A DNA stretch of 56,714 bases, filler included, from Jimgerdemannia flammicorona (GCA_003990765.1; 3 parts of 3 records of this genome joined end to end with filler, not necessarily neighbours in it); one strand, 5' to 3'. Shown: positions 17,885 to 55,749, numbered from the whole stretch's first letter. The notes: generated by a model from the sequence alone, not told the origin. Numbers and translations are program-made.

Positions 17885-18065
17885 TTCTTACTATATTATA
17901 TCTAATATGATTGAGCTGTTAGATAATAGCTAGTTTAGATTCATAAAGGTATAGTGCTCAAGAGGAGGTAGAGGAGAGTTTTGGCCTATATAGTCTAAGT
18001 TCTCTTTTAAAAAAAATCTATAGAACTTTGAGACTATTAAAATAATAATAATAATAATAATAACT
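17885..18065 (+). mobile_element. Short LINE/SINE 3' fragment with (AAT)n tail
   Basis: Contains the ttggcctatatagtcta..ttctctt tail shared with 7080 and 37710; flanked by agatatagata direct repeats. Confidence 0.7.
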
Positions 18066-18840
18066 AGATATAGATAACTATACTATATTCAGTATTTATA
18101 TTATTTAATTATACTATATTATTTACTTATTATAATATATAACTCAATTTGTTTAAATTTTTTTTTTTTTTAGCTCTTATGTATAATTTTAAAAAATATA
18201 AACCTTTAAAATTATATCTTTAAATATAGAAATAAAACAGATAAAGAGATAACCTTTATTATATATTTTACTAAAGTAAAAATAAAGAAAGATAAGTATT
18301 CTTTATTAATCTAAATAGTTATATTTTTATATTTCTGATAATATAGCTTAAAAGAATATGTATATCCCTTTGTCTGTAGATAAGATCATCTTTTAAAATC
18401 ATTTAGCAGACAAATTAAAGTTTGAAAAAAATGATTTTTTGAAACATTGTTTTTCTGTTAAAAATATATCTCAATTTATTTAAAAACAAAAAAAAAAAAT
18501 TTGGTAAAATTTTTACCAAAGATAGAATTATTATATAAAAAATTATTGGTAAATTTTTTTTTAAAAGCTATTATGATTTTAAAAGTTATAAACTTTTAAA
18601 ATCTTGCCTCTAAATATAGGTGTAAAAGTCAAAGAGATATAAGTTATAATTATTAAGATATATAAATTTTAATAATTTTAATAATGTTTTTTATTTTATT
18701 AATATTATAAAGTTTAAATATATCTATAAATTAATAAAATTATTAATTTATATAAAATAAGTAAATAAATAATAAATTAATAATAGTTAATATAGAGATA
18801 AGTAATATATAGATAAATTAATAATTATAGATATTTTTTT

Positions 18841-18940
18841 NNNNNNNNNNNNNNNNNNNNNNNNNNNNNNNNNNNNNNNNNNNNTTAATTAATTAANNNN
18901 NNNNNNNNNNNNNNNNNNNNNNNNNNNNNNNNNNNNNNNN
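18841..18940. other. Assembly gap with artificial TTAATTAATTAA linker
   Basis: 100-nt N run with a central all-frame-stop linker. Confidence 0.97.
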
Positions 18941-22503: not shown

Positions 22504-24420
22504 CTATAATTCCATACTCATCTCATCCCCCGCCAGATCCAAGTGCCACTCAGTCTCCAATTCACCCTTGGCATTATCCTGAGCATCCAGTGCTCCCAAG
22601 ATTTCCTGACATTCCACCCTGTCCACTTCCTCCATATCAGCCCTGTAGTCTAAGCAGACAGCATGCCACTTCTCCAGTCCCTTCCACGAATTCCACAAGA
22701 ACATTGCTCTGTCACTCACAATCCTCCTAAGTTCCTCCTCCCGCTGATCATCAACCTGATACTCAACCGACTCCAGGAGGACTGCCAGGATCTCATTCCT
22801 CATCTTCCTCGGCACCTCCTCCTCTCGCAGGATCTCCTCCCAATGCTTCTCCTCCAACACCCTGAAGTCCTCACCCCCCAGCTCTTCAGCTGCTACCCCT
22901 TCCAAGGTCTTCCACATCCACTTCTCCTCATCCACTGCCTCCACCGCCCCCTGAGCGATCTGTCCTCCATCCACCTCAGGGTCCACCAGCATGCTCCTTC
23001 TCACCGACTCATCCCACTCCTCATCCGGTACATCCATCAGCTCCTCCTCTCCCTCTGCTCCATCCGGAACACTATACTGAGGGTGCACACCCTCACCCAT
23101 TTCGGCATCCACCTCCAAATTTCCCTCCCTCCCCTCCCCACCTCCAATCCGATCTCCGCTCTGGGTCATCTCTCCCCCCTCAGTCCAGGTGCTCTCCCGC
23201 AACCCTGCAACTCCCTCCCCTGAGCTTCCACTAGCCCCACCCCCACCCAACTTCGCCAACAGCTCCTTCTGGATCCTCCTCCCCTGCATCTTTTCCCAGG
23301 CCCTCTTCTCCATCCAGATCCTCTTTCCATCCACCTCCCCCACCACCATCCTGGCCTCAAACTCCTCCCAGGTCAATCTTCTCCTTGCCACTGCCCCTTC
23401 CAGGTCCTCCAGAGCCTCCAACAGATCCTCCTCCTCCTCCAGAGTCCCCTTCACCCTGGTGACCTTACACTCCACTGGTCCCCACCTCAGTGCTGCTGGC
23501 CAGTCCCTTGACTTCCCCATATTCTCCTTCCCAGCCAGCCTCACCCTGACATCAACATCACCAGTCCTAAGCTCCATGCCCTCCCAGACCTTGAACCCAA
23601 TATCCACAATCTCGCCATACTCCTTAACCACCTCCACAACCAACTCCCTAGTCCTTTCCTTTGACACAGTTGGGAGGTCCAATACCATCAACTGTACTAC
23701 TCGGGGGTCCCAGCGCATGCACTGGGCCATAGGGACCACCACTCTGCCAACCATCACCCCCTTCTCCATGGCTACCAACAAGGCATCTTCCTTCTCAAAC
23801 CCCACCTCAACTCCTTCCTTTCCCCTCAAGAACTTCACCGATGCTGCTCCCTTAGCCTCCTGCACCACCAGCCCCAAAATCATCCTCGCCATCACTGCCA
23901 AGCCCCGGAAGCACATCGTGACCACGAATTCAGACCTCGACTTCTTGAGTAACGGGGCCGACATCATGTCTGTCACCCCATCAGCCAGGTCCCCGGGCCT
24001 CGTGCCTTCTCCAAGTTCTGAATTGCCAACCACCGTCACATCTGGATTTTTTGCCAGATCCCCAGTCACAGCCCCATCAACAGTCACATCTCCAGCCCCT
24101 ACTCTGGCCCCCTCTCTACCACCAGAAGTACCCCGGGGTGCACCTCCCTGACCCCCAGCAGTAGCCATCGATGCCTTCCCCAGGCCCAGCCAACCATCTA
24201 GCCTAGAAGCCATCTTCTCCATTCTGACCTTGTCAGCAAAGGTCGACCTCTCCCCTCCTCTCTGCCTCAGACCGCCCCTTCCTCTGCCACCAGGGCCTTG
24301 GCTAGCCATCAAGGCCCCTGGTATCCCCAAACCATCTCCCCTCCTCCCCACCTACTGCCAGCCAAAGGCGCTATCACCCCCCTGGCCAGTATGCTCACCA
24401 GTTTGATTGTTGCCATCCAT
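22504..24420 (-). CDS. LINE ORF1 (RRM-like region plus acidic/helical C-terminus); one early TAG at 24352-24354
   Basis: 615-aa open frame extended in frame to ATG at 24420 (MDGNNQTG...WQ*VGRR); homologous ORF1 in three other copies. Confidence 0.85.
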
Positions 24421-25920: not shown

Positions 25921-28900
25921 GTCAATACTATAATCTTATAAATAACCCTTAGTAACAAAATATACTTTTTATTAATCTATACTTCTATCATTCTTATACT
26001 TGACTTATACTCATTATTATCCTATAGATTATTGATTGCTCAAAAGAGATATCAGATTTTATATACTATTCTCAATAAGTAAATTATACTCTTCATTTAT
26101 AGCTTACTTCTATTTTTTATTATCAGAAGAATTTATTACTTCATTACACATGTTTGACTCATCAGAAATTGCAATAAATATATATTTGTATATCTTAGTA
26201 TAACTCATATAGTTCTTACATTGAGATATCTTTGGTATATTCCAATAACTCCCTAAATTGGAATGAGTTTCTCAGTAAATATTAGAGTACTTTTGCTTAC
26301 TCTTTATAGAGAATCTCTCATTATTATCAGAGATCTCACTATCCTAAATTTCTGTTATCCTTGGCTCAGATAACTCTGGCTTAGATATATAAAGCAGTTA
26401 AAAATAATTTTACTTTATTAGAGAAGTTAGTACTGAATATTATACTTACTGAGATATTGAAGTAGAGATTCCAATAGATATATCTATATAGGGTTTCTGA
26501 TTTTCTTTTTTGTTAAACTCTATATCATATAAGATTACTATATAATATTTATATAAATTCTAGAATCAATACATCTTACTAGAATATATAAGAAATACAT
26601 ACTTGCTAGCTTTTGGTCTAAACTTATACTGATTAGTATTGCTCTTGTCAAGAATATATATATCATATCTGAATATATATAGATATAATATATCTGGCTT
26701 CATTTCACTCTATAACTCTTCAGAATAAGATTATTATCTCTAGAATACTTATTATTATTGCCAGATTTCTTGCTTAATACTTGAGATATATATTAGTTAT
26801 ATTATATATACCATTATATTAATGATCTTGGCCCAATAAGAATATAATAATCTGGCTATATTGATTATTATTTTTACCATTTCCATGGCCATATAATTAA
26901 ATCACTTAGCTATACCATTCTGCTATAGTATATATAATACTATTATCTAATAGTATATATCATATTTTCTCAGATACTGCTTAAATATACTATTGATATA
27001 TTTATATTTATTATCTGAGTATATAGTATGTATTCTATATTCTGTTTCATTCTCTATAATTACTTTAAATTCTTTAAATTTATCTAAAACTTTGCTCTTT
27101 GCTAATAGAAAATATATATATACCTTGTATAATAGCTTAAAGAATATAATGAAATATCTCTTCTCTCTGTAGAAAGTAGTATACATCAGGCTACATATAT
27201 TTATATAGATTAAATTAAGTATACTATATATATTTTATCTACTTCTTGAATAGATACCAGGATAACTTATTTACTATATATAATCTTTACAGAAGTTATC
27301 ATTAAAATATATTGCTAGTAATCCTTATATAGATCTATTTCTTATCATTCTTTTCAAGCTCAATTTTTCTATATATTCTAAGTATTAATACTATATATTA
27401 GATATATCAGATATAGTTATTATATATATAGAGGTCTTTATACTACTCAGTATACTATTGATTATATACAGATTACCTTATTTTGATACTAATATGATCT
27501 CCTTGTTATTTTTCAAACTATATATCATTGCTCTTATTAGAAGTATATATATATTTCTTTATTACTATAGACCATTATTTTACTAATTGAAAAGAGATTC
27601 TTTTCTATTTTTAGAATATATAATATATTCTAAAAAGTATCAGTGAGCTCCATAATATTCCTACAGAGATATATACTAAAATTTCCTCTTCCTTGAGTAT
27701 ATATAATATTGTTATCACCTAACTTGATAGATATGGAATATTCAAACAACTTATATATTGAGAACCATTCTCAGTAAGCTATTATATATTATATAGTATC
27801 TGAATCTCTAAGCTAAACATTATTATTATTAGTAGTATTAGTACTTTTACTAACTATATTCTTATTGATAGATATATATATAGATATTACTTATATGAAA
27901 AACATGCTACTATTATTATTAGTTTTGATAATATTTGTATTATATTATTCTTTACTATTATATTTCTTTCTACTACTCTTATATTGTCAATACTGGCTTC
28001 TATACTTATTTTCATTATTCTTCTTATCTTTATAATAGTAATCATTATATATATATCTATACTTATTATAGTAATAGTAGTTTTTATTAAATATTTCACA
28101 TTTTTGGCCTTATTAGTACTTCTTGCCTTATCTATATAACTTATAGAACACTTTCTCATTATTGTTATTACCACTATTTCCTTGATGCATCTTTTCATTG
28201 ATGAGGCTCATTATTACATAGATATAGTCTGTGAGTTTTTCACTTTCATATATGGCTACCACTATAATATTATATATCTTAAGAAGATCTCATATAAGAA
28301 TCAGAATCTTATCTTCATCACTGATATACTCTATTGATATACTTAGGAAATTTATCTGATTTATCAGATTATCAATATGATTAGTATATTTACAAATACT
28401 CTATTTGAATTTCATTTATAGATAGAATAGTTGAGATTTCTGATAGAATCAATTTGATAAGAATATTTATATATAATAATTATATAGAGTCTCTTATATT
28501 ATGGACTATTATAGTATATATTATAAGCTTTATTTACTAGTTTTATAATATAAAAATAATCTCTTATAATACTTAGTGATTATTTGTAGTATTATAATCT
28601 TGAATCTATACCTATAGTTTTATATACTCTGCTATACTCCTCCAGAAGATTGCTTATATAAAATATCTAAATAGTATATATAATTCTTACTATTAAAGAT
28701 AGGAATTAATATTTTAGCTATATTTATATTTACTACAGAAACTGTGATTATTATATCTATTCTGGAAGTACTCACACCTACTGTGTTCAGTATGCTTATA
28801 TATATACTGATCTCTTTTTGTCTATACTGATATCTTAGTATAGAGTTTTAGAGAGATATTTCTTATTAGTAAGTGGACTCATAACCTTTATTATAACTTA

Positions 28901-29015
28901 ATAGAGTAGGGAGCAGAGTAGAGAGCAGAGCATTGTTTATTATTCTAGATAGTATATATTTATATATCAAGTAATATAACTCAAAAATGATATAGTTATA
29001 TATATAAGCTATATT
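25920..29015 (-). mobile_element. Heavily decayed Ty1/Copia element (LTR remnant-PBS-gag-PR-IN), truncated before RT
   Basis: PR decayed W..DSG (~27800); IN LNLIYINICSLM, IYSDNKYKY, *QNGIAK*FN; IN follows PR as in Copia. Confidence 0.8.
28874..28886 (-). promoter_or_regulatory. Copia half-tRNA-iMet primer-binding site (GGTTATGAGTCCA)
   Basis: Matches the GGTTATG(G/A)GCCC PBS of copia/Ty5-type elements, upstream of gag. Confidence 0.7.
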
Positions 29016-37877: not shown

Positions 37878-40800
37878 CGATCTTCATGGGGTCTGTGTGG
37901 ATTCTGGTCTGGTTGATGAGGTGTCCTAGATAGGCGATTTCTTAAGCTGCAAACTTGCATTTCTTGGGCTTGATGTAGAGGCCATGCTCCTTGAGCTTCT
38001 TGAGGGCTAGCTATATGTGATTGACATGTTCCCATGCAGTGTTGCTGAAGATGATCACATCATCAACATAGACAAAGAGCCATTTTCCAATCTCATTGCT
38101 GAAGACTCTGTTCATCATTTGCTGGAAACTTGCTGGGGCATTGTACATTCCAAATGATATTCGCAGATAGATATAGGTGGCATCAGGTGTGATGAAGGCT
38201 GATTTCTCACTAGCATCTTGAGTGAGACTGATCTGATAGAAGCCTGAGAACAGATCCAAGGTGGTGTAGTATTTGGCTTTGCTTCCAAGGGTGGTAAGGA
38301 TTTCTTGAATATTTGGCAAGGGCTGCCTATCCTTCTTGGTGATGGCATTGAGCTTTCTGTAGTCAATGCAGAGTCTTGGCGCAAACTCTCCAGGCTTGCT
38401 TCCTTTCTTCGGGGCTAGGACAATGAGTGAGGCCCAGGGGCTGATAGCTTGCTTGATGATTCCGGCTTCTTCCATTTCCTTGAGTTCTGCTCGCAGCCAC
38501 TCTCTGTAGGCAGGTGGTATGGGTCTGGCTTTCTGGTAGATGGGCTTGGTATCACCAGTGTCAACTTTGTGGTAGTACTTGGGTTCTTGATTGTGGATAT
38601 CCCTAAAGTCTGTAGCAAGTACTCCTTTGTTCTGGTACAGAATCTTGAGAAGTTGTTCCTCCAGGGGAAAGTTTTCTCCAATGGTATATATGTGCTTGTT
38701 CTGGTCCTTGTCTTTCTTGTGCTCAAGTTCAGTAATCTTGGTGGTGGCATAGGCTCCTCTTCCAGTAGATCCAAAGCCTTGTTCTCCTCTCTTGGTCTTG
38801 ATGAGTTCGATGGCTTCTATGATCTTGGGCTTCTTGATTTCGTGGATCAGCATCTGGCCAATCCTGTCATACTTCTTGACTTCAAAGGGGGTGGTGTGGT
38901 TGTGATTTCTGACTATGAGAAAGATCTCGCCAGTGTAATCAGGGTCAATCACTCCTCCTTCAACTGAGATTTCGCTTTTGGTCAGACTGCTCCTGGTCTT
39001 GATAATTCCGGCATGGTTTTCTGGCAGCTTGACTCCAATTCTGGTGCCAAGTAGGGTGGTGGTCTGTGGTTCGAGGGTAGTATCTTGAATGCTGGCAAGG
39101 TCCATTCCTATGGCTCCTTCAGTCTTGTATTCTGGGATCTTGGCTTCGGGGTGAAACTTCTTGACCTTGTGGGTGATGTCTGATTCTTGTTCCTCCTCAT
39201 CATCACTGTCAGCTTGAAGCTCTGGGGGCTGGTCATCTTCTTCTGCTTTCCTTTTTACTTTGGCGGCTTCTTGCTCATGTTTCTGTTGGTGGATTTTCCT
39301 GACTTCACTGATACAGGACCAGCAGTCATTCAGGTGTTCAGAGCAGTACATCCTAGTACCATGGGGGCATCTTCCTTAAGGGGCATAGCCATCAATAATC
39401 TTGTTATACCACTGCTCATCTGTGAGCTTGGGTGTCTTGCTCTTGTTCTTGTTCACCGAGTACATGAAGACCTCTGTGTCTTCTTCATCTCCTTCCTTCA
39501 TGTCTGGTAGGACTCCTTTGTGGACATTGATAGAGACTCGTACCTTTCTTCCTCTGTAGTTGATCTGTATCTTCTGGGCATTGAGGTCAATGATGGCCTT
39601 GGCCTTGTGAAGCCATTGGTTGCCAATGAGGATGTCATAGTTGGTAGCACTTGTAACAATCATGTCTACTGGGATGGTAGCTCCTCCTATCTTGATGGAG
39701 ACTTCTCAGATTTTGCCTAGGGGGGTAGCTTGTGTACCGTCTGCTGTGACATAGACCATCTTGGTGGACTCTTCAATATCTCAACCTAGGTGGTCAATTG
39801 TCTTCTTGCTCATGAGGCATCCTCCAGCACTAATATCAATGATGGCATCAAAGATACAGTCTTCAATCTGGCAGGGGGTATAGGCTGATGTCTTGTGCTG
39901 GTCTTCAGATTCTTCACCTGAGTTCTCAGATTCTTTCTGTGCATTGTGAGCTTCTACAATCTTGTACTCTTGATTCTTGGCTGTAGTTGCAAGTCTTACT
40001 CTCAACTGCTGTCTGAAGGCAGGGACTTCAGCTAGCTGTCCAAAAGTGGCATTGACCTTCTGTTCCTTGAGGTCCTTGTAGATGTCATACTGGTGGATCT
40101 TGGTCTTGCGCAGCTTCTGTTCCTTCTTGCTTTCACTTTCTCCTGAGACTGAAGTAGTGCCTTCAATGATTTGGCGGGCAGCTTCATCTAACTCCATATC
40201 TTGGTCAATCTCCTCGGGTTGAGTTTTGCTTTGAATAGTGACAGCTGGGGTCTTCTTTAGTCTTCCAACTAACTTGCTATTGCTCTTCTTGTCATAGGGC
40301 TTGGACTGGGTTCTGGTACCTTCAGTAGCAGGGTAGAATTCGAGCTTCTCGTAGTATTCTTCATCATCAGTATCACCAATCTCCTCGATGACTACTGCAT
40401 TGGTTTGTTCTCTGGTTCTGCTAGCATTGCTTGGTTGGGCTTTGCGTCTTGTTTTAGTCATGCAACTCTTTGCATAATGGCCTTCTTCTCCACATCTGAA
40501 GCATATGATATTGTATTCTTCTGTAGCAGCTGCAAATCTCTGCACTGGTCTCCTGTTGGCACTTTGGACTTCTCTAACAACATCACCAAGATGTGCAGTC
40601 ATCTCGGCGAACTGCTTGGCAAGTTCCTCCACTGGGTCAGCTTTGGCTATCTTGGGGGTAGGTGAGGTTGGTTGTCTGTTTACAACTGTGGCAGGTAAGA
40701 TACTAGTTGGCTTTGATGGCTCCATCTTGATGCCAGTTATTTTCTCCATTAAGTGTATCTGGCAGTCCAATATCTCTGTGCAAAGACCACTTCTGATCAA

Positions 40801-41255
40801 GGGTCAGTGCAGTTAGGGTAGACCGGATTGCTAGGGCAATTTCAGGGTGAACTCCTTTGAGGAAGGTTAAATCTACTATTTGATCCTTGAGGCAGTCATC
40901 ATAGCCAGTCAAGACAATCTGGTGGCAGATTCAGGTATAGAATGAGTTGGGATCTTCACTAAGTCCCTGGCAGATAGTATTGAGTTGATCCTTGAGAGCT
41001 TGCTTGATCTCTTCGGTATAATATGTTGTTCTGAGGAAGACCTTCATGTTGGCAAGTTTGACTGCATCAGTACCAGCAATAGTGGCTGCATTGAACTTGT
41101 CTCTAGCAGGTCCTCTAAGGCTGACTGGTAGAAGGGCCAATTGAGCATCCACATCAAGGGCTCATATGGTGGCGAATTGTTCAAAGTCTTCAATGAAGGT
41201 CAGGATTGACTCTTCAGTAGTATATCTATAGAATGTAGGGGGACGCATTTCCATC
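37878..41255 (-). pseudogene. pol: gag-pol polyprotein of Gypsy 2 with scattered stops and a frameshift
   Basis: ORF pieces 41162-41380, 40931-41152, 40703-40912, 39781-40800, 39376-39663, 38011-39351. Confidence 0.9.
38761..39168 (-). CDS. dut: dUTPase domain between protease and RT, open, with all five motifs
   Basis: AIGMDL, KTRSSL, GVIDPDYTGEI, DRIGQM, RGEQGFGSTG inside ORF 38011-39351. Confidence 0.93.
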
Positions 41256-41374: not shown

Positions 41375-42913
41375 TGTCATGTAGTGGTCACTGAGTCCTT
41401 CAAATATGCCAGATTCTCTTCAAGGTGTATCTCTTAGACTAACTCAAGTTTGTTATAAGCAAGTTCTTATTGGAGTGCCTTCCCAAGGTCTTATAGTCCT
41501 CAAACTTCTTATCTTTAACTGTCTTATTATCTCTTAGATTGCTTGCAAGAAAGTGTGTATAGGTGAACTTGACTGACTTTATTTCAAAGGAAATAAGAGG
41601 GGTATTTATACAAAATATAATTCAATAGTTGCTAAGATATAAAGCTAAATATAAATTCCAATAACTAAAACTACTGAGTTCCAGGGCTGGCATTGATGGT
41701 TGTACAGGTTCAGGATACTGGCATTATTTAGTGTCACATCAAAATGCCAATACTGGAACAATTTCATGTCACCTCAAAATACCAGTGCTGGCATTATCCA
41801 GTGTTACATGAGAATACCGGTGCTGGCATTATCCAGTATAGCAAAAGACTTAGAGCAGAAAGTTCAGGATCATGGGGACTTCATCATCATCATCATCACT
41901 GAAGGAGATGAGATCTGTGAATTCATCATGCAGGTCACGCGTTTCACGTATATCGATGTTGTACGGGATGACGTCATCGCTGATGATGTCATCACGTTCG
42001 GCTGTAGTGGGGAAATCGGGAACAAGGTCTGGAGCTCTCTAGTCTATGAGGTTCTCTTCCACAAAATAGGGAACAAATATGGGGTCTTGGAGAGGTCTAA
42101 CCTGGATGCTTGGGCCTTGGAATACTGAGAACAATCCTTGCAGGAATTGATCTGGGTTGTCCTGGAGGATAGGGTGCCAGAAGTCTTCTACTTCTTCACT
42201 GTTAAGAGTGATAGTGGACTGGGCTTCTGTAGCCACCCTGGCTTCTAGTGCATTGATATGGCAGGATGACAGGTCTCTGAAGTCTGAGACTCTAACATAC
42301 TCTAAGTTGGGGATCGACCATGGTGTATGCCTGAAGATCTGATAGATCTTCTTAGCTGTCCTTATTTTGCATATATCTATGGAAGTGGCATCTTGTAGCT
42401 CTTGGGTGCTGGCCTGTGGGAACTCCCGGCAGAGGAGGTTTCTTATTTCATACTCCTGCCACATTTGGAGGTATTTGGTAGCAATGGTGATCCTTGTTTC
42501 CATTTCACGACAGTAGAGAATGAAGTGATAAGGGTCTGTAGTATCCAGGTAGACACTAGGAGTCCTTCTTGAGCGGGTCCCCATAGCTCTTCTGATGTCT
42601 TAGAACATTCTTTCCTCGACTGAGATACCTTGGTGATTCCTTAACCTTGAGGTTTGGTGGGCAGCAGGCATTTCATTTGTGGTAAGTCTTTGAGCTATTT
42701 TGGGATTGGTGGTTCTTGTTGGTTGCTGCTACTGCGGTTCCTTAATCCTTCTTTTATATTCTTCAGGATGCTTATACTGTGGTCACAATGACTCACAGTT
42801 GGTCATCATTGCTCATCTCATATGCCGTATGATCTTCTTGTACTCCGATCTGGTAGCTTGCAAGGAAAGGCTGTCTCCTGTGCTGATGTCATCATTCTGG
42901 GGTCACCGTTATA
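41375..42913 (-). repeat. 5' LTR (family B, 1539 bp)
   Basis: Highly similar to 46675-48155; termini TATAAC (decayed TGTAAC)...TGACA; adjacent PBS. Confidence 0.9.
41850..42608 (-). pseudogene. U3-encoded ORF of LTR family B, copy 1
   Basis: 181-aa open part 42039-42584; in-frame acidic extension after TAG to TAA at 41850. Confidence 0.65.
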
Positions 42914-46674: not shown

Positions 46675-48388
46675 TGTAATGGTGACCCCAGAATGATGAC
46701 ATCAGCACAGGAGACAGCCTTTCCTTGCAAGCTACCAGATCGAAGTACAAGAAGATCATACGGCATACAAGATGAGCAATAATGACCAACTGTGAGTCAT
46801 TGTGACCACAGTACAAGCATCCTGAAGAATATAAAAGAAGGATCAAGGAACCGCAGTAGCAGCAACCAACAAGAACCACTAATCCCAAAATAGCTCAAAG
46901 ACTTACCACAAATGAAATACCTGCTGCCTGCCAAACCTCAAGGTCAAGGAATCACCAAGGTATCTCAGTCAAGGAAAGGATGTTCCAAGACATCAGAAGA
47001 GCCATGGGGACCTGCTCAAGAAGGACTCCTAGCATCAACCTGGGTACTGCAGACCCCTATCACTTCATTCTCTACTGCCGCGAAATGGAAACAAGGATCA
47101 CCATTACCACTGAATGCCTCCAAATGTGGCAGGAGTATGAAATAGGAAACCTCCTCTGCCGGGAGTTCCCACAGGCCAGCACCCAAGAGCTACAAGATGC
47201 TACTCCCATAGATATATATGAAACAAGGACAGCTAAGAAGATCCATCAGATCTTCAGGCATGCACCATGGTCGATCCCCAACTTGGAGTATGTTAGAGTC
47301 TCAGACTTTAGAGACCTGTCATCCTGCCATATCAATGCGCTAGAAGCCAGGGTGGCTACAGAAGCCCAGTCCACTATCACCCTCAACAGTGAAGAAGTAG
47401 AAGACTTCTGGCACTCCATCCTTCAGGACAACCCAGACCAGTTCCTGCAAGGGTTGATCTCAGTATTCCAAGGCCCAAGCATCCAGGTTAGACCTCCCCA
47501 GGACCCCACATTTATTCCTTATTTTGTGGAAGAGAACCTCATAGACTAGAGAGCTCCAGATCTTATCCCTGATTTCCCTGCCGAACGTGATGACGTCATC
47601 AGTGATGACATCATCCCGTGTGACATTGACATATCCGAAGCACGTGAACCGCATGACGAAGCATCCAAAGTACACGAAATGCATGACCTGCATGACGAAT
47701 TCACAGATCTCATCTCCTTCAGCGATGATGATGATGATGATGATGAAGCCCCCATAGTTCTGAACTTTCTGCTCTAAGTTCTTTGTAACACTGAATAATG
47801 CTAGCACCGGTATTCTGAAGTGACACAGATTTATTCCAGCACCGGCATTTCATTTTATTTTAGTTATTGGAGTTTATATTTAGCTTTATATCTTAGCAAC
47901 CATTGAATTATATTTTGTATAAATACCCCTCTTATTTTCTCTGAAATAAAGTCAGTCAAGTTCACCTACACATACTTCCTTGCAAGTAATCTAAGAGATA
48001 ACAAGACAATTTAAAGATAAGAAGTTTGAGGACTATAAGACCTTGGGAAGGCACTCCAATAAGAACTTGCTTATAACAAACTTGTAGTTAGTCTAAGAGA
48101 TATACCTTGAAGAAAATCTGATATATTTGAAGGACTCAATGCCCACTATATAACAATGTAGATAATATAGTCCCCACAGTCAAGTTTCAGTCAAGTTCAC
48201 TTACACACACTTCCTTGCAAGCAATCTAAGAGATAATAAGACAGTTAAAGATAAGAAGTTTGAGAACTATAAGACCTTGGGAAGGCACTCCAAAAAGAAC
48301 TTACTTATAACAAACTTGAGTTAGTCTAAGAGATACACCTTGAAGAGAATCTGGCGTATTTGAAGGACTCAGCGACCACTACATGACA
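46675..48388 (+). mobile_element. Solo LTR (family B) with tandem duplication of its 3' ~200 bp
   Basis: TGTAAT...TGACA termini; 4-bp TSD atag; ~47950-48155 repeated at ~48185-48388. Confidence 0.9.
46980..47777 (+). CDS. U3-encoded ORF of LTR family B, copy 2 (189 aa open plus in-frame acidic extension after TAG 47547-47549)
   Basis: ORF conserved in both LTR copies; the indels in the extension preserve frame. Confidence 0.65.
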
Positions 48389-49244
48389 ATAGATTCTTAG
48401 ATATATTTTTTATAGAAGTAGCTGCTAACTAGGTTGTTAAATCTCTTCTTGAGTTCTGAGATATAGGGGATATTTTTGTTAAGTATAAAAAAAATGTTGA
48501 ATATCTCTTAGATGATTTTATTATTGAGTTTATCAAACTCCTCTTAGCTGGTGTAAGTTTTGGTCTACTTAGTGATGATTCTGTTGACTTCTTCTACTTA
48601 AGTCTAAAGAGTATCTAGGGTAAAAGTATTTCTTTACTATTACTATTAATATCAGTAATATTGATCAGTATCTGATTATCTATAGTAGATTCTTAAAAAA
48701 AGATTACTTGTAGATAAGGAGAAATCAACCACTGCTACCAAATTATAATAAAACTATATATTAATAGAATTACTATATTATAGATAATCAATAGTAACTA
48801 TTAGCTCTAAGTTCTAAATTCTTAAAGAAGTACTAAGTTCTGAATCACCTATTATAATAAAGTTTAAGTATTGCTTTCAGGTTTGACTGAGTATAGGAGG
48901 CCATACTTGTATCCCAAGTTGATCAGACTTGGAATTATTAATAAGTCAGATCTGAGGTTTTTATAATAAGAATACTACTTTATTCTTATATTTAGAGAAA
49001 GTAGAGCTGAGGTTGCAATTTACTTAGTATAGAGAATATTTATACATATTTGAAACTATGACTAAATATGGTGTACTGGGTATGTCTATATATAATTATA
49101 CTACTTTGAGTAACTATGACTACTAGTCAGAAATTTCAGAGGCTTATAATGATTTATTATAATATTTTATATCAATTTAAATAATATAACCTTATATTTA
49201 TATTATATTATATTATATTATATTATATTTAGTGCTCCGAACGA

Positions 49245-49380
49245 ATGGAGTTGATCTGGATGAGATTCAATTCAGATTCATCATGTGATGGATTCGAATC
49301 AACTCAGATTGGTCTCGTGATCTGATCCGGATTGATCCATCTGGATGATCCATCCAGATTGATCCATCTGGATTGAAATC
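49245..49380. repeat. hAT subterminal repeats (left)
   Basis: Reiterated gattgatccatctgga and gattc motifs. Confidence 0.7.
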
Positions 49381-49590
49381 TTTGGTGACATCACTCTTTC
49401 TTTTGTTTATTTTGCTCTTGTTTTTTTTTTCTGCCGCACTTTGGTGACATCACCCTTTCCTTTGTTCTCTCTCTTTTCTTTGTTCTTTTCTTTGTTCTTT
49501 TTCTTTGTTCTTTCCTGCCGCATCACGAGCAAACAAAACAGCAGCCCTTAATTTGTACATTGGTCCAGTCTACTCATTTTTCACCCTGTA

Positions 49591-51606
49591 ATGATCATCA
49601 AAAGAGGGAGTATTCAAGGTGGAAACATACTCTCTGCTGACAATGTTAGATTCTTTCTTATATGGACAGCACACAAGCTGCTTATCGAGAGCCAAAGGGG
49701 CGACGGTGGTGGCAGTGGCGATGGCGATAGTGGGAATGAGGGAGAATTCCGGCAACAACTCATGGTGGCCCTTCAGACCTCGGAATTCACAGACCTCACA
49801 GCTATGTATGCGGCAGCCTTTTTGGAGCAGCTGATAGTAGATATAGGTTGCTCACTTGGCCGCCACTTGTTTACTTGTATTTATTTAAACTTCCCCAGCA
49901 TGACTCAATTCACCTCATACTTTTCTTAGGGTCCACAGCTCTATGGCGAGATCTGCCGACTTTATTCGCAACATCTGGTCAAGATGAAGAAAGGCTGGTG
50001 GACATTGTGGGGCATACCTTTGGTGGCTGAGCTGTTGAGTCAATGCATCGCGTGACAGAGGTCTCAAAAGGAACAGAAGCAAGCCTTCGTGAGCAATTCT
50101 TATGCAACTTGTGCAACTCGTCAGTGTGCAACTCATCGGCATGTAGCTCACTCACTCATGCTCTTTTTCTGAAATACCCATCTCCGTGTTTTATTTAATT
50201 TCATTTTTACGTAGTCTCCCCCTAAAAAACACCCACACCTGCACACAACCTGCATGCAACCCGTCCACACGCAACTCGCCTGCATGCAACCCGCCCACAC
50301 GCAACCTGCCCACAACTCGCCCGCATGCAACCACCTGCATGCAACCCATCTGCATACTTATCTCGGTCCCTCAGATCAGGGCTCAGTTCCATTGAAAAGG
50401 AGAGTTCAAAGTTACCTGAGTTCAACCACGTCCGGCGTCTGATCAAATAGAGAAATTCGAGGGCAAGATGTTCAGCATGAGCAGTACCAGTACTGTTATC
50501 AAGGCTTGGGGGTCTACATTCGAATCAGAGTCAATCGTACTCAACCAAGGGGTCCATTGGCCAGCAGAAGTTACCAACGATGAAGAGAACCATATCTTTA
50601 TTAATGAACATAGAGAGGTGGTTGCGATGCTGGTAAGGAACCTCTATGGTGACAAGCTTCACTGCCACATCAACGAGATTTGTGAGGATTGCGTCAAATA
50701 CCAGGTGGTGGGAAAGAGGGGGTGAAAAAAGCAATGAGGGGGGGTTTGGATGGGAATTGGGTATACTGCAACACTGGCGAAGGGTGGGTTCCGGAGTTCC
50801 GAAATCCCCCGCACTTGTCTCCCTTTTTTTTTAACCCCTCCCCAGACAAATCACACTCTTCGCCGACATACTCTTTTTGATACAATTCCAGGGATGTACA
50901 AGATTCTGTACCCCTACTGGAACTTTAGAAGTGCCGTCGAAAAGCAAACTGCGCACGAGCACGATACGGCCTGTGCGGCAATGGCGGCTATGATCTGGGG
51001 TTCTTTGAGCAGATTGGTAGAGCATACAGCAGGCCAGCTTAGTGGTGATCTTGGTGTGGCTGTACGTATGTTCTTGGCACAATTTAGCGTGCCATATGAG
51101 GTGAGGAGCTCTGCTTTTTTGGGATGCTGCAGCCTGGGGGGTTTCTGCAGCCTGGGGGGTTTCTGCCCCCCCAAACGCAAAAAGGACTGACCAGTTGCTG
51201 TCTGTTTTGGCAGGTTTCCAAGCCGGGGCTCCTGGGGCTGGACCAAGGGCAGGCATCCACCAGCACAGCCTGGCAGTATGAGGTCCTGGGCCAAGGGTTC
51301 ACCCAACCATATGCTTGTGTCACATCAGGATATGTCGGGCACAACCTTTCTCTGCCCATACACACAGACAACAATGTCACCCTGGTAATGTTTTACATCT
51401 CAGAAAGGAAGGGCCCAACCTGGGAGGATAGCGGCAGAGTCTGGTACGACCTCACCTATGGTTTCAGGGTCCTATTTGTGGCCAACACGGCCATACTATT
51501 CCAACCACATGACCACCACGGCACCGTCACCTTCGAGGAAAGCTCAGACACAATAGTTGTCGCACTCACAACGGATGATAGGCTCATCAAGGCCTGGGAC
51601 CGGTAG
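49591..51606 (+). CDS. TET/JBP-like 2OG-Fe(II) dioxygenase cargo gene, spliced; 5' exons carry TGA stops
   Basis: Phase-0 exons 50375/50468-50704, 50846-51100 and 51214-51606 join into a 294-aa open frame from Met 50468; HTD at 51361-51369; YDLTYGFRV...NTAILFQPHDHHGT with distal His at 51517; the 5' exon structure is uncertain. Confidence 0.75.
50240..50350 (+). repeat. Short tandem repeat (cctgcatgcaacccgcccacacgcaa) in a putative intron of the cargo gene
   Basis: Visible reiteration ending before the acceptor at 50374. Confidence 0.65.
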
Positions 51607-51904
51607 GTGGAGCAGTTTTTGTGAGGGTTAGGCAATCTTTTATGAGAGTTAGGCAGCCATTTTGTGCAGGTTGGGCAGTCTTATATGGGGGGGTTGGGCT
51701 GGGTGCCTCTTATGTAGCACTAGCTTAGCCGTTATGCAAGGCCCTACTGGTCCCTCGGCCCTGCTCTATAGTGCTACCAGTGCAGCGCTGCGGCGCAGGG
51801 CTGGGGTGCCCGTGGGACCCGAACTGGTGACTTCGACTGCCAGAAATGCCCTCTGACTACCAGAAGCACCCTCCGACTGCCAGAAGCACCCTCTGCCCCA
51901 GACT

Positions 51905-52390
51905 TCTTGGTGGCTTAGGGCTGCCCCTATGCCACTGGCAGAGGGCTGCAAATTTTGTGCGCTCTCTCCACCTGCCCCACCAGTCCCGGACACTTGTGGC
52001 TTGGGGCTGCCCCTTGCTGCCAGCGGAGGGCCACAAATTTTTGCGTGCTCTCTCTGCCGACCCTGCACCTGCCAACTGACCCCGCCCACTGATCTGGGCA
52101 CTGACAGCTTGGGGCTGCCCCTCACTGCTGGCGGAGGGCTGCAAATTTTGCACGCTCCCTTTGCCTACCCCCCTGACCCAGATACTTGCGGCTTGGGGCC
52201 GCCCCTTGCTGCTGGCGGAGGGCCGCAAATTTTGCATGCTCCCTCCGCTGACCTGCTCACTGACCCACCAACCCGCCCACCGACCTGTCCACTGACCCGG
52301 GCACTGGCAGCTTGGGGCTGCCCCTTGCTGCTAGCTGAGGGCCACAAATATTGCGCACTCCCTTCGCCGCCAACCCTGCCCCACTTTGGC
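51905..52390. repeat. Array of five GC-rich ~55-bp hairpin-forming units with variable spacers
   Basis: Core gcttggggc(t/c)gcccct..ctg...gcggagggc..caaattttgc at ~51913, 51999, 52107, 52191 and 52310. Confidence 0.88.
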
Positions 52391-52496
52391 CGCAAACTCT
52401 GGGTTGAGTCCTCAGGTTTTTTTTCCTTTTTTATTATTTTGAAAGGTGTTAAATATTCCATAAGGCCAACCAACTTATCCGCAGACCTGCCAAATT

Positions 52497-55082
52497 TTAG
52501 TGGCCCAAGCCCCACCAAGACTTCAGACACATACATGCCCAGATTGTCTCATCATTCAGCGCACACCTCTTTGGGGCAATGAGGTCCACCCCACCTGAGA
52601 ACACCCGCTCGATGGGAGCACTGGAGGCAGGAATCGCCAGATAGTCCCGAGCCATACCACACAGACTGGGGAAGTCTGTTTGATGCAGCTACATACTCTG
52701 GTAGGTAGAGCGGTGGTTAGATTGGTGGGTTAAATTGGCCCAATGCCCACCTGACAACCCACCTTCCACCAGTTGAGCACCTCCGTGCCCTCCAGCAGGA
52801 CCATGTGGTCGCTGGCGAGGTAAATGGTAAGTTCGTCTATTGACGGCAGCTCTTCCACTGATGGCTCCCTCTTCCTCTTTCTGCCGAAGTAAATGTGGGA
52901 CAAGAGGGATCCCTCGGCATATTCATCTAGACTTCGGCCAGAACCTTGCAGCAGTGCGTAGTTTTTCTGGTATACTTCAATTACGGCCTGCTTGGTTCTC
53001 TCAATAAAGTACTGCTCTCAGCCCTGATCTTTATGGTATTGTAGCTTTAAGCATGGGTCCAGTACTGTTCGAAGAAAAGGAGAGTGAGTTTTTGCGAGGT
53101 TTTCTCTGTTTTGGAAGGGGCAATGGCCACACACTGACATCGACATACCTATACTAATTGAGTATACGGTGGTATCTGTTTGGGAGTAGTATTTTCTAAG
53201 CTTACTTAGAGCAACCTCCACGGCATCTCTCTGATCTGGGCTTAACCATAAATCACCGCAACCCTCCAGCCAGTCCTCGAGCTTGTCCTCTAGCCGGTCA
53301 ATCAGAAGGTTATATACTGGTATCGCAGAGCTTATTGTTGGGGTCATTTGTTTGACTATATCCTTCATACAATCATTGAAACATTGGCAGTTATATGTAG
53401 TGAGGTGTTGCATTGTGTGGAGGCAGACAAAATGAGTATGAAGCCAAAGCAACCACCACTTACTTCCAAAACTCTGACAACATTCCTAAGTACATCCCAC
53501 TCACTTTCACTTAGAGCCTCAGCCCATATTTCCTTGTTAGCAGCCATCATTGAATCTATTGGCTTTTTTTTTTTTTTTTTTTTTAAAATAAATCTTCCAT
53601 CATCTGAAACAGTTGCTTCAGCCAACCAAAGAAAAAAAGGATGCATACCACAACAAACTCCAGCATGTGCTGGATCATTGCAAATGTTGAGTTCTAATGC
53701 GTACAGATGTCCAATATAAGCTCTTTCGGGGCTAAGCTGATTGCCCTACACTGCACAGCGAATTTGTCTCATCATTGTGGGGACAATCAGACTGACACAA
53801 CCAGTTTGCACAGCTTGGAAATTATACTCAGGGCCCCTCCTCTCTCGGATGTTTTGTCTATGTATGTAAGATAGTCCTGAACAGCGAGGTTCAGTACATG
53901 GGCATGGTATCGCACATAGCAGCTTTCTACACTGAAGGCCACGTTTTCCTGTTTAAGGCTGGCTACTAAAACTTGAAAAAATGTTGAGTTGTTTGTGGTA
54001 TTGTCCATCATAATGGCCAAAATCTGTACTTGAAATATTTGGTTGACAAATTTATGTGAAAATAAGCAACCAATAAAATCTGGTTTGGTTTAGGACCTCC
54101 CTCAAAATGCCGACCTGATGGCAAGCCCCCCTTTTTTACCTTGGTGGTGATCCCAAGCTCCCGAATATAACTAATAAAAGCATCTGCGATGTTGTCTCCA
54201 GAATGAGGGCCAGCAAGTTTGATGAAGTCAAGGGTGAGAGATTTAAGCTGCCAATCGAGGTCAATCCAATGACCGGTAATGCCCAGAAACGAAATTGCAT
54301 TGGGGGATGTCCATGTGTCGATCGTAAATAAAATTTTGCCTGCCAAATTCTGCTTATTGAATGTGAGGTTAAATTGGTGAGCTCTTTTATATAATTCAGC
54401 TTGCAAAGATCACGGTGCTGCCCTTATTTTACCTGAAGTGTCTGGTAGAGATTATCGTACTCCTTCCTATAGGCCTCTAGGACATCTTTGCGAATAGTAT
54501 CAGCACTTGGCAAATATAAATCATGCTTGAGGAGGCCAAAGATGCTATGCAATTGATCACTCTCAATAGTTGTGAATGGCTGATCTGTACATACAATCCA
54601 GTAAATGAGCTGATTTCGAAATTCTGCCAAAGAGTATGGCTAAATATTTTTGATTAAATGGCATTGTTGGTACAGAAATGGTAGGGCAATCGGATAAACA
54701 TACCCACTACAGCTTGGATGTCGATTTTATTTGTCTCCGTGTTCTTTTTGATTTTGTTAGAGTGCTTGTCTTTTATGTATCGATTCATGGTCGAAGTCGT
54801 ACCCCCAAGCATTTTGAACTTCTGGCTGGTGCAGTTCATGGGGGTGGATGAAACAATATCATGTGTATGTCAAAACAATATCATATGTGTGTCAAAACAA
54901 AGTGTTAATAGGTATGTCTTAATTTTTTACCTGTAATAATTACAAATAACATCATCTCCTATCTTAGTACAATATTGCCAGATTTTGGAGCAAGAATTGT
55001 GTGGAAGGTGTGGAACTATCAGGGATGTTTGACTTGAAGCATCATTGGTACTGTGAACTGTTGAAGACTGATCTGTTGACAT
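52497..55082 (-). pseudogene. hAT transposase, multi-exon, with inactivating changes
   Basis: BED finger SKIWQY...C..TTSTMNRYIKDKH; QPFTTIES; FTIDTWTS; MDNTTNN; RYHAHVLNLAVQ (CxxH mutated); TH*NSTF (decayed TRWNST); LDPCLK; dimerisation motif MARDYLAIPASSAPIERVFS; GT-AG introns. Confidence 0.93.
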
Positions 55083-55199
55083 GTGTGTTTACGTGTTTGT
55101 GTGTACATGTGTATACATGTGTGTGTATATGTGTATATGTATACATGTGTGTGTATGCGTGTGTGTATATTGTGTTGTGGACACGTCTGGCATATGAGT

Positions 55200-55580
55200 C
55201 ATGTGGAGGATTTGGATTGGAGGATTCAGTTGAAAGATTCAGATGAGAATTTGGATTAAAGGATTCAAATTGGAGGATTCAAATTGGAGGATTTGGATTG
55301 AGTGATTTGGATTGAGTGATTCGGATTGAGTGATTCGAATTGAGTGATTCGGATTGGGGTGGTTCGGATGGGTGATTCAGATGGGTGATTCGGATGGGGC
55401 GATTCGGATAGGGCGATTCGGATTGAGTGATTTAGATTGAGTGATTCGGATTGGGGTGGTTCGGATGAGTGATTCAGATGGGGTGATTCGGATTAAATCC
55501 GAGTTGATTCGGATGGTTTCGGATTTGAGATTCAGATCAAACCATCATGTGATGAATCGAATCTGGATTTGATTCGAATT
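55200..55580. repeat. hAT subterminal tandem repeats (right), 13-14-bp ggattgagtgattc / ggatgggtgattc units
   Basis: Directly visible tandem array next to the TIR. Confidence 0.85.
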
Positions 55581-55749
55581 GACTCGTTCAGAGCACTAAT
55601 TATATTATATTATATTATATTATAAATTTATTCTCAATAATTAGAGTCTAATAAATTATTATTAGAAAACTAAAAGTAGAGCTATATAAACTATAAAACT
55701 AAAATCAAAACTGGACTAGAAGATTTTAAAAGTACCATAATATATGACT

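What the first reader, a model, noticed from the sequence alone, without database searches (positions are those of the whole stretch)
49230..55598. hAT transposon carrying a TET/JBP-like DNA dioxygenase: candidate anti-silencing transposon system
Seen: an intact TIR/TSD-bounded hAT with its transposase on the minus strand and a second spliced gene on the plus strand. The last exon reads GYVGHNLSLPIHTDNN...WYDLTYGFRVLFVANTAILFQPHDHHGTV...TTDDRLIKAW, an HxD...H triad in a beta-rich region. Upstream, HIFINEHREVVAMLVRNL also resembles fungal TET/JBP proteins as I recall them. Established: fungal TET/JBP genes are known cargo of Kyakuja-Dileera-Zisupton (KDZ) transposons and oxidise 5mC, and a Coprinopsis TET has also been reported to demethylate 6mA. 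I do not know of a described hAT carrier. Inference: the element brings its own methylation eraser or modifier into a genome whose repeats show heavy methylation-type decay.
Basis: partly seen in the sequence, partly recalled or inferred. Interest (0 to 1): 0.9.

Follow-up and report, generated by a model that had tools for sequence, protein, structure and literature searches.

The report
Decayed hAT transposon with TET-like cargo
This is a dead copy of a cut-and-paste hAT transposon that once carried its own probable DNA-demethylating (TET/JBP-like) enzyme gene, a kind of element already described in fungi in 2025, and here both of its genes are broken by stop codons.

Summary
The element is real. 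It spans 49230-55598, with 15-nt terminal inverted repeats (14 of 15 matched), a perfect 8-bp target duplication (ATTATATT), and a multi-exon hAT transposase on the minus strand (Dimer_Tnp_hAT, E 1.4e-14).

The plus-strand gene is also real, and its protein family keeps an HxD...H iron-binding pattern. It hits no Pfam family or solved structure by sequence. ESM Atlas neighbours of two relatives point to a 2OG-Fe(II) dioxygenase fold and to "Tet-like" PF20515 clusters. By eye, it lines up block by block with the transposon-borne TET/JBP proteins in Kojima 2025.

- **The copy is not intact.** The transposase has four in-frame stops in one exon, and probably a fifth.
- **hAT carriers of TET/JBP genes are in print.** They are described in Kojima 2025, PMC12730594.

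This copy differs from those published hAT7 families in its TSD length, its terminal repeats, its gene orientation and its TET subtype. I file it as a new member of a known kind, of modest interest.

The parts
49222..49229 (.). Left copy of the 8-bp target-site duplication, ATTATATT
   Evidence: Identical to 55599-55606. It lies in an (ATTAT)n microsatellite whose phase allows only 3, 8 or 13 bp.
49230..49244 (+). Left terminal inverted repeat, TAGTGCTCCGAACGA
   Evidence: 14 of 15 positions are complementary to 55584-55598. It begins TAGTG, which fits the hAT YARNG end consensus; that consensus is recalled, not tested.
49245..49540 (.). Left subterminal region with short repeats (ATTCGAATC, ATCCAGATTGATCCATCTGGAT)
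   Evidence: families D15, D18 and D20 and inverted pairs I7, I9 and I23. The same motifs recur near the right end.
50218..50248 (.). Left arm of a weak inverted repeat bracketing the cargo gene (partner at 51660-51690)
   Evidence: I2, 74% over 31 nt. In one search, 23 of 31 positions match and 0 of 60 shuffles reach that. There is no duplication beside the arms.
50468..50783 (+). Cargo exon 1 (corrected end), with in-frame TGA codons at 50723-50725 and 50735-50737 inside the conserved block G-x-R-G-K...G-x-G-Y-T
   Evidence: The donor is GTGGGT at 50784.
50784..50891 (+). Cargo intron 1 (108 nt, GTGGGT...TTCCAG, phase 1)
   Evidence: Same position and phase as the L001 intron 1181-1266.
50892..51100 (+). 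Cargo exon 2 (corrected start)
   Evidence: It begins (G)MYKILYPYWNFR, which aligns to (G)MHSCITPYRNFK of L001 and P0007.
51101..51213 (+). Cargo intron 2 (113 nt, GTGAGG...TGGCAG, phase 0)
   Evidence: The matching intron in L001 is 1452-1533.
51214..51606 (+). Cargo exon 3, holding the putative iron triad: H 51361-51363, D 51367-51369 and H 51517-51519
   Evidence: Both His columns are invariant in 7 of 7 rows. The Asp column holds in 6 of 7 rows; P0003 has Asn there.
51660..51690 (.). Right arm of the weak inverted repeat bracketing the cargo gene
51831..52401 (.). GC-rich minisatellite-like direct repeats (spacings of 84-119 nt, plus three 20-nt units) between the two convergent genes
   Evidence: families D3, D5, D9, D12-D14 and D17. 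GC is 0.56.
52497..55082 (-). hAT transposase gene: about 9-10 exons with short introns, and a pseudogene in this copy
   Evidence: Dimer_Tnp_hAT at 52497-52688. In-phase GT..AG introns exist at every ORF junction examined. In-frame stops lie at 53787-53789, 53772-53774, 53769-53771 and 53694-53696, with a probable fifth at 53018-53020.
55204..55540 (.). Right subterminal array of 14-bp repeats (GATTCGGAT-type)
   Evidence: families D1, D2, D8 and D16.
55584..55598 (-). Right terminal inverted repeat (reverse complement TAGTGCTCTGAACGA)
55599..55606 (.). Right copy of the 8-bp target-site duplication, ATTATATT

Best explanation
The stretch 49230-55598 is a structurally complete but genetically dead copy of a canonical hAT DNA transposon with an 8-bp TSD. 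Its family carries, tail-to-tail with the transposase, a three-exon gene for a very divergent TET/JBP-like Fe(II)/2-oxoglutarate dioxygenase.

**Inferred, not shown.** In active copies the transposase would cut and paste the element. The dioxygenase would oxidise 5-methylcytosine, or another modified base, on transposon DNA, and so counter methylation-based silencing. Kojima 2025 proposes this for TET+ transposons.

**Shown.** In this copy the cargo has two nonsense codons and the transposase has four, probably five. Five of these six or seven stop codons are TGA. The one TIR mismatch is CpG to TpG, and the surrounding repeats are strongly CpG-depleted. Together these fit decay by deamination of methylated CpG after insertion. 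The copy now makes neither protein and could move only if another copy supplied transposase.
For: **hAT identity.** It rests on the TIRs, the 8-bp TSD and the Dimer_Tnp_hAT match at 1.4e-14.

**The cargo is a real gene family.**
- phmmer of exon 3 against 1.84 billion representatives gave 6 hits at E up to 0.001. Four are true relatives: P0001 (84% identity), P0002 (53%), P0003 (35%) and P0005 (31%, full length at 374 aa). I dropped the other two, P0004 and P0006, as repetitive chance matches.
- P0005 aligns to the window in the same order over 50561-51100 and 51223-51534.
- The corrected three-exon model aligns end to end with P0005 and with spliced L001, at 26-27% identity over about 290 positions. 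Both introns sit at the same places as in L001.

**Dioxygenase nature.**
- The two His of the HxD...H pattern are invariant in 7 of 7 aligned rows, and the Asp holds in 6 of 7.
- The Atlas holds its own model of P0001 (pLDDT 0.69). Eight of its 10 listed structural neighbour rows carry 2OG-Fe(II) oxygenase families or names. Row 2 is a cluster in which 28% of members carry Tet_JBP.
- By Atlas features, rank 3 for P0001 is a 'Tet-like 2OG-Fe(II) oxygenase' cluster (72% PF20515, score 0.91, 178 of 256 features shared).
- For P0005, the best Atlas cluster scores 0.96, with PF20515 on 15% of members.

**Likeness to published transposon TETs (by eye).** Six blocks in the same order resemble PU-type rows of Table S1 of PMC12730594:
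- ...VAMLVRN...
- GGVWMGIGY against GGKMWGIGW
- ...QFSVPY against ...RFNIPS
- SGYVG...HTDNN against NGFYN..HTDN
- the ...F[QR]....HGT block
- the [GV].AL[QT] block

These were read.

**Decay.**
- The stop codons and their positions are listed.
- CpG observed/expected is 0.49 in the element and 0.18 in the window, across all four NCG contexts.

**Relatives are also repeats.** L001 and L002 come from two metagenome contigs, are near-identical over the 2.7 kb they share (93% mean column identity, which counts L002's unaligned first 155 bases and the last 284 bases of L001:1-3000, past L002's end, as mismatches), and L002 carries 2 stops. The P0003 cluster has 28 members at 90% identity or more on many contigs.
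Against: - No significant sequence match ties the family to TET/JBP. Pfam gave nothing for the window exons, P0001-P0003, P0005 or the L001 exons at E up to 10. PDB phmmer and profile searches gave nothing at E up to 10.
- Both AlphaFold models were poor (pLDDT 38 and 41). Foldseek on the second found no match at E of 0.001 or better, only weak cupin, HppE and PHD2 rows.
- The Atlas gives leads without E-values. P0005's recognition value (2142) is below its bar of 2300.
- None of six 5-residue words of the family, and only 2 of six 4-residue words, occur in Table S1. The likeness to PU and PE types is judged by eye only.
- The C-terminal strand lacks a conserved Arg where many 2OG enzymes bind the co-substrate (the expectation is recalled).
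- That the cargo belongs to the element family, and is not a one-off capture, is untested. There is no second copy and no genome.
No RNA data could be laid to exclude its use.
Confidence: 0.7

Rival explanations
1. One reading: an intact, working hAT element whose spliced TET/JBP gene actively erases methylation to protect the element.
For: The ends and TSD are perfect or nearly so. Apart from two stops, the cargo frame is open over 305 codons with the HxD...H residues in place. The element is less CpG-depleted (0.49) than its surroundings (0.18).
Against: It also uses an acceptor 46 nt upstream of the conserved one. The transposase has four in-frame stops inside one exon flanked by hAT-like sequence, which no intron can remove.
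Confidence: 0.04
2. The cargo is a 2OG-Fe(II) dioxygenase of another kind, such as a protein or small-molecule hydroxylase captured from the host. It would have nothing to do with DNA bases.
For: There is no Tet_JBP or PF20515 Pfam hit. The structural neighbours of the Atlas model of P0001 include prolyl hydroxylase and 2OG-FeII_Oxy_3/_5 clusters at TM values similar to the Tet_JBP-containing cluster. Foldseek on my poor model lists PHD2 and HppE.
Against: Atlas feature neighbours name Tet-like PF20515 clusters for two different queries. The N-terminal blocks, which lie outside the generic jelly-roll core, resemble those of transposon TETs in Table S1. Relatives are multi-copy, decaying repeats like transposon genes. 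All the true relatives come from metagenome contigs and none carries a functional name.
Confidence: 0.15
3. The cargo region is a separate nested mobile element, or a one-off transduplicated fragment in this copy only, and not a constant part of the hAT family.
For: A 31-nt inverted repeat (23 of 31 positions) brackets the gene at 50218-50248 and 51660-51690. None of 60 mononucleotide shuffles reached 23. The relatives L001 and L002 show no hAT transposase within 3.7 kb.
Against: There is no target duplication beside the arms. The arms lie in C/A-rich and G/T-rich short-repeat DNA, where such matches come easily (D7). The gene has its own conserved introns and is full length, not a fragment. 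Kojima 2025 found whole TET genes as regular cargo of many DNA transposon families, with no signature at the capture borders (section 3.4).
Confidence: 0.1

Closest known systems
TET+ hAT7 transposons of Puccinia (Kojima 2025, Biology 14:1741, PMC12730594)
   Same: Both are fungal-type hAT DNA transposons that carry a whole TET/JBP-like dioxygenase gene beside the transposase, in a genome whose repeats show C-to-T decay. The cargo keeps HxD, as the PU type does, and resembles PU rows in several blocks. One example is HTDN at the iron site, found in 2 PU rows.
   Different: - hAT7 makes 7-bp TSDs; this element has 8 bp.
- The hAT7 ends read in Table S1 (5 rows) start CAACGGTGGGC or CAGCGATGGGC; this one starts TAGTGCTCCGAACG.
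- The three hAT7 families whose layout the paper describes (TET lineage P4) have the TET gene upstream of the transposase in the same orientation (section 4.1 passage). Here the genes converge.
- None of six 5-residue words of this cargo occurs in Table S1.
- This copy is dead.
PE-type TET/JBP-like dioxygenases of Pezizomycetes and Agaricus transposons (same paper)
   Same: Both are very divergent from canonical TETs and barely detectable by profile methods; the paper reports HHpred E of 1.4 to CMD1. The block pattern is similar by eye..VVIRNAC.., R.RK.D.G....G.SAG, GGHFF...G[IV]R......I.W.P...H.TS.
   Different: The stated hallmark of the PE type is HxE at the iron site (section 3.4). This family has HxD. 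[quoted passage not shown]
KDZ (Kyakuja-Dileera-Zisupton) transposons with AG-type TET/JBP genes, including CcTET of Coprinopsis
   Same: The idea is the same: a DNA transposon that co-mobilises a 5mC oxidase. CcTET is shown to oxidise 5mC and 6mA (as summarised in PMC12730594, sections 3.4 and 4.2).
   Different: The transposase superfamily differs. The AG-type proteins are shorter, and the two rows seen share only the word WYDL with the window's cargo.
Pfam PF20515 (2OG-FeII_Oxy_6, 'Tet-like 2OG-Fe(II) oxygenase') and PF12851 (Tet_JBP)
   Same: Atlas clusters nearest to P0005 and P0001 carry these families: PF20515 on 15% and 72% of members, and Tet_JBP on 16%, 11% and 28%.
   Different: hmmscan of the window exons and of P0001, P0002, P0003 and P0005 finds neither family at E up to 10.

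Membership tests
hAT superfamily of DNA transposons | 8-bp target-site duplication | tested here: met
   ATTATATT on both sides. The microsatellite phase allows only 3, 8 or 13 bp.
hAT superfamily of DNA transposons | Short terminal inverted repeats | tested here: met
   15 nt with 14 of 15 matched, at the exact borders of the interrupted microsatellite. The YARNG consensus it fits is recalled.
hAT superfamily of DNA transposons | Transposase with the hAT C-terminal dimerisation domain | tested here: met
   PF05699 at E 1.4e-14 and 54.1 bits (cut-off 21.4) on window:52497-52688:-.
hAT superfamily of DNA transposons | Open, catalytically complete transposase (an autonomous copy) | tested here: not met
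   There are four in-frame stops at 53694-53789 and a probable fifth at 53018. One stop lies in ..LILDICTH*NSTF.., which I take to be the conserved TRWNST block; that motif is recalled.
hAT7 (TET+ hAT lineage of Kojima 2025) | 7-bp target-site duplication | tested here: not met
   No 7-bp reading fits either set of ends; the TSD is 8 bp. The definition comes from section 3.1.2 of PMC12730594.
hAT7 (TET+ hAT lineage of Kojima 2025) | Transposase groups inside the hAT7 clade | not tested
   No hAT7 transposase sequence was available as a stored sequence. The Table S1 consensus cells are cut at 400 characters.
TET/JBP dioxygenases | Double-stranded beta-helix fold of 2OG-Fe(II) oxygenases | tested here: inconclusive
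   The Atlas's own model of P0001 (84% identical to exon 3; pLDDT 0.69) has TM 0.54-0.63 to 2OG-Fe(II) oxygenase clusters in 8 of 10 rows. My AlphaFold models had pLDDT 38 and 41, and Foldseek gave nothing at E of 0.001 or better.
TET/JBP dioxygenases | HxD...H iron-binding triad | tested here: met
   H 51361-51363, D 51367-51369 and H 51517-51519. Both His columns are invariant in 7 of 7 rows; the Asp holds in 6 of 7.
TET/JBP dioxygenases | Significant match to a TET/JBP profile (Pfam PF12851 or PF20515) or to a solved TET, JBP or CMD1 structure | tested here: not met
   There were no hits at E up to 10 in Pfam or in PDB sequences. Only Atlas leads and by-eye block likeness to Table S1 point this way.
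TET/JBP dioxygenases | Oxidation of 5mC (or T) in DNA | not testable with these tools
   This needs a biochemical assay of an intact family member.
PE-type TET/JBP (Kojima 2025) | HxE in place of HxD | tested here: not met
   In 6 of 7 aligned family rows the motif is H-[TV]-D, and P0003 has H-V-N; no row has HxE. The hallmark is stated in section 3.4.

The most novel reading that the evidence does not exclude
The cargo stands for a fourth, undescribed type of transposon-borne TET/JBP-like dioxygenase, outside the PU, AG and PE types and invisible to Pfam. It would have been captured independently by a canonical 8-bp-TSD hAT lineage. Its relatives are multi-copy repeats in AT-rich soil eukaryotes known only from metagenomes, so the transposon-TET alliance would reach beyond the three fungal lineages where it has been described.
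Probability: 0.35. Interest if true: 0.5.

Novelty: new member of a known kind. Interest (0 to 1): 0.3.

Why it matters
Transposons that carry their own methylation eraser are a counter-defence against genome silencing. Kojima (2025) showed that eleven DNA transposon lineages, hAT among them, do this in fungi. No such enzyme from a PU-like or PE-like type has been assayed.

This element adds a canonical 8-bp-TSD hAT carrier. It also adds a dioxygenase family so divergent that standard annotation misses it. All the true relatives I found came from metagenome contigs, and none has a functional name.

It also shows the other side of the conflict. This copy lost, and both of its genes were killed by what look like CpG deamination changes.

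The practical value is modest. It offers a seed for finding more such genes in repeat-masked fungal genomes, and a candidate for testing whether these divergent enzymes really act on 5mC.

Tried and rejected
**Searches and models that gave nothing**
- Pfam on all cargo exons, the longer ORFs, P0001-P0003, P0005 and the L001 ORFs gave no relevant family at E up to 10.
- PDB sequence searches with P0005 and with the family profile gave 0 hits at E up to 10.
- The word-indexed protein search with exon 3 (longer proteins) gave 0 hits. With P0005 it gave only P0007, and with the profile nothing new.
- AlphaFold of P0005 (6-row alignment) had pLDDT 38, and of window exon 3 (7 rows) pLDDT 41. Both are too poor to use.
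- Foldseek against the PDB with the second model gave no match at E of 0.001 or better. I ran no further search on such models.

**Data that could not be had**
- Whole genome: none is held.
- Other copies in the window: none.
- Sequencing runs: 7 listed, all with small shares (0.05-0.18 of words), and no RNA holder listed.
Expression, splicing and depth are therefore unknown.
- Earlier findings by place and by sequence: nothing. By words: only unrelated TET findings.

**Ideas considered and dropped**
- A frameshift in the transposase between ORFs 54424-54639 and 54008-54409. In-phase GT..AG introns exist at every junction.
- Stop-codon reassignment. The stops align to different residues in relatives (K and S/G in the cargo; apparently R and W in the transposase), so no single sense reading fits.
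- TCG-specific hypermutation of the Pucciniomycotina kind. All four NCG contexts are about equally depleted (0.11-0.25).

- A scored alignment of the cargo against the TET protein sequences of Table S1.
Full report
**1. What is there**

The stretch 49230-55598 is bounded by TAGTGCTCCGAACGA on the left and its near-perfect reverse complement on the right. They match at 14 of 15 positions, and the one mismatch is CCG versus CTG. Both flanks are an (ATTAT)n microsatellite, and the eight bases on either side are ATTATATT.

In a period-5 repeat a matching flank could be trivial, so I checked the phase. The left flank ends at phase 5 of the unit ATATT and the right flank starts at phase 3. Only duplications of 3, 8 or 13 bp give that. 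The 8-bp TSD typical of hAT therefore fits, and 7 bp does not.

Both subterminal regions hold short repeated motifs, and the right one has a 14-bp tandem array. No other copy lies in the window, and no whole genome is held.

**2. The transposase**

The minus strand from 55082 to 52497 encodes hAT-like segments in alternating frames. The last segment matches Pfam Dimer_Tnp_hAT at E 1.4e-14. In-phase GT..AG introns of 47-130 nt exist at every ORF junction I examined, so the frame changes need no frameshift.

One exon, however, reads ...KLCKLVVSV*LSPQ**DKFAVQCRAISLAPKELILDICTH*NSTFAMIQ..., with three TGA codons and one TAG (53694-53789). hAT-like sequence runs on both sides of each stop, so introns cannot remove them. 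The last stop sits where I recall the conserved TRWNST block of hAT transposases.

A further TGA at 53018-53020 interrupts ...LDPCLKLQYHKDQG*EQYF... and is probably a fifth nonsense change. The transposase gene is therefore dead in this copy.

**3. The cargo gene and its corrected structure**

Four are real:
- P0001 (84% identity, last exon only)
- P0002 (53%)
- P0003 (35%)
- P0005 (31%, 374 aa, full length)

I dropped P0004 and P0006 as repetitive proteins matched in many short stretches. A further search added P0007. A metagenome scan added two contigs, L001 and L002, which encode a 48%-identical relative of P0005 in three exons.

It shows that this stretch encodes the conserved block that reads G-L-R-G-K-A-R-A-G-T-G-L-Y-V-S-A-G-Y-T in P0005. 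In the window it reads G-K-R-G-*-K-K-Q-*-G-G-V-W-M-G-I-G-Y-T, with two in-frame TGA codons at 50723 and 50735.

The L001 intron lies directly after the ...A-S-G codon, in phase 1. The window has a GTGGGT donor at exactly that place (50784) and a TTCCAG acceptor at 50891. After the acceptor the sequence reads (G)MYKILYPYWNFR, which aligns to (G)MHSCITPYRNFK.

The corrected model is:
- exon 1: 50468-50783
- exon 2: 50892-51100
- exon 3: 51214-51606

It is 918 nt, or 305 codons plus the stop, with internal stops at codons 86 and 90. It aligns end to end with P0005 and with spliced L001 at 26-27% identity over about 290 positions, and both intron positions are conserved. The cargo is thus a real, full-length gene of a small family, but in this copy it is a pseudogene.

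**4. What the cargo protein is**

The two His of the HxD...H pattern are invariant in all seven aligned rows. The Asp is present in six of seven; P0003, a member of a decaying repeat cluster, has Asn.

Sequence methods fail to name the family:
- Pfam finds nothing at E up to 10 for any exon or relative.
- PDB searches with P0005 and with the family profile find nothing.
- My two AlphaFold runs were starved of homologues and gave pLDDT 38 and 41.
- Foldseek on the second model gave only weak jelly-roll rows (HppE, cupins, PHD2) and none at E of 0.001 or better. I count that as no evidence either way.

Two other lines do speak.

*First, the ESM Atlas.*
- It holds P0001 letter for letter, with its own model (pLDDT 0.69).
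- Eight of the ten structural neighbour rows listed for that model carry 2OG-Fe(II) oxygenase families or names, at TM 0.54-0.63. One is a cluster in which 28% of members carry Tet_JBP.
- By language-model features, rank 3 for P0001 is a "Tet-like 2OG-Fe(II) oxygenase" cluster (72% PF20515; score 0.91; 178 of 256 features).
- For P0005, the best cluster scores 0.96 with PF20515 on 15% of members, and rank 11 is a cluster with 16% Tet_JBP.
- These are leads without E-values.

*Second, the published transposon TETs.* Table S1 of Kojima 2025 prints the TET domains of transposon-borne genes.
- None of six 5-residue words of my family occurs there.
- Of six 4-residue words, HTDN occurs in two PU-type rows, at the iron site. 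WYDL occurs five times, and the two rows shown were AG-type.
- Read by eye against PU rows such as that of hAT7-5_PGr, six blocks follow in the same order. Examples are GGVWMGIGY against GG.MW..GW...QFSVPY against ...RFNIPS, SGYVG....HTDNN against NGFYN..HTDN...F[QR]....HGT, and a final [GV].AL[QT] strand.
- PE rows look similar too, but their stated hallmark is HxE, whereas this family has HxD.

I put the odds that the cargo derives from the TET/JBP radiation at about three in four. The main alternative is a 2OG-Fe(II) oxygenase of another kind.

**5. Decay**

Five of the six or seven stop codons are TGA. In the transposase they sit where I would expect Arg or Trp, and in the cargo where relatives have Lys and Ser or Gly. 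No single reassigned meaning fits them all.

The single TIR mismatch is CpG to TpG. CpG observed/expected is 0.49 in the element and 0.18 in the window as a whole, and it is about equally low in all four NCG contexts. That speaks for general CpG methylation and deamination, not the TCG-specific hypermutation described for Pucciniomycotina (as summarised in section 4.2 of the paper).

The element is thus younger or less decayed than its neighbours, but it has already been inactivated. The relatives behave alike. L002 is a near-identical copy of L001 over the 2.7 kb they share. It carries two stops, and nearly all the differences are transitions.

**6. Is the cargo part of the element?**

The gene lies between the TIRs, converging on the transposase across a GC-rich minisatellite. 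A 31-nt inverted repeat (23 of 31 positions) brackets it at 50218-50248 and 51660-51690. None of 60 shuffles reached that value, but the arms lie in short-repeat DNA and no duplication flanks them.

Without further copies I cannot show that the gene is constant cargo. The published pattern, in which whole TET genes are regular cargo with no signature at the capture borders (section 3.4), makes that the likelier case.

**7. Comparison with what is known, and verdict**

Kojima (Biology 2025, PMC12730594) reports TET/JBP genes in eleven DNA transposon lineages. They include twenty hAT families (hAT7) in six Puccinia species, and the paper proposes that they counter methylation-based silencing. 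I read the abstract, sections 1, 2.1, 3.2, 3.4 and 4.2, passages on hAT and part of Table S1.

My two literature searches for hAT plus TET in fungi, and for PF20515, found no other description.

This element is not a hAT7 member by that group's defining feature, and it differs in other ways:
- The TSD is 8 bp, not 7 bp.
- The ends are different.
- The genes converge, instead of lying in the same orientation.
- The cargo is not close to any Table S1 protein.

I file it as a new member of a known kind: a decayed copy of a TET-like-carrying hAT. A fair chance remains that its dioxygenase represents an undescribed subtype.

**8. What remains open**

The host was not identified. Expression, copy number and enzyme activity all remain open.

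Noticed in passing
window 1-56714: The whole window is strongly CpG-depleted (observed/expected 0.18, and 0.11-0.25 in each NCG context). Several repeat blocks show strong one-strand GC skew: about -0.41 to -0.52 at 11-17 kb, -0.39 to -0.55 at 19-24 kb, and +0.29 to +0.52 at 30-32 and 34-38 kb. That would fit strand-biased C-to-T decay of individual repeat copies.
   Followed up: partly
window 38011-40803 (-): A retrotransposon pol/gag region has a dUTPase domain (PF00692, 3.2e-28) directly upstream of the reverse transcriptase in one 454-aa open frame. A zinc-knuckle gag ORF lies upstream of it.
   Followed up: partly
window 19817-20880 (-) and 22504-24351 (-): Non-LTR-type reverse transcriptase fragments (RVT_1, about 2e-9 each) lie next to a 615-aa open frame with no Pfam family.
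   Followed up: no
window 42039-42599 (-) and 46860-47549 (+): Two inverted copies of the same roughly 186-aa ORF (DIRRAMGT.SRRTPS...EENLID) have no Pfam family. They are probably parts of one repeat family.
   Followed up: no
L001 1-3666 and L002 1-2870: Two metagenome contigs hold near-identical copies of an AT-rich repeat that carries an intact (L001) or stop-bearing (L002) relative of the cargo. Nearly all their differences are transitions. A roughly 155-nt unit is duplicated at the 5' side of L002. Downstream plus-strand ORFs (L001 2320-3256) have no Pfam family, and no transposase was recognised.
   Followed up: partly
window 18001-19000 and 26001-29000: These stretches are extremely AT-rich (GC 0.14 and 0.21-0.24) and lie between the repeats. 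The window also holds 176 N.
   Followed up: no
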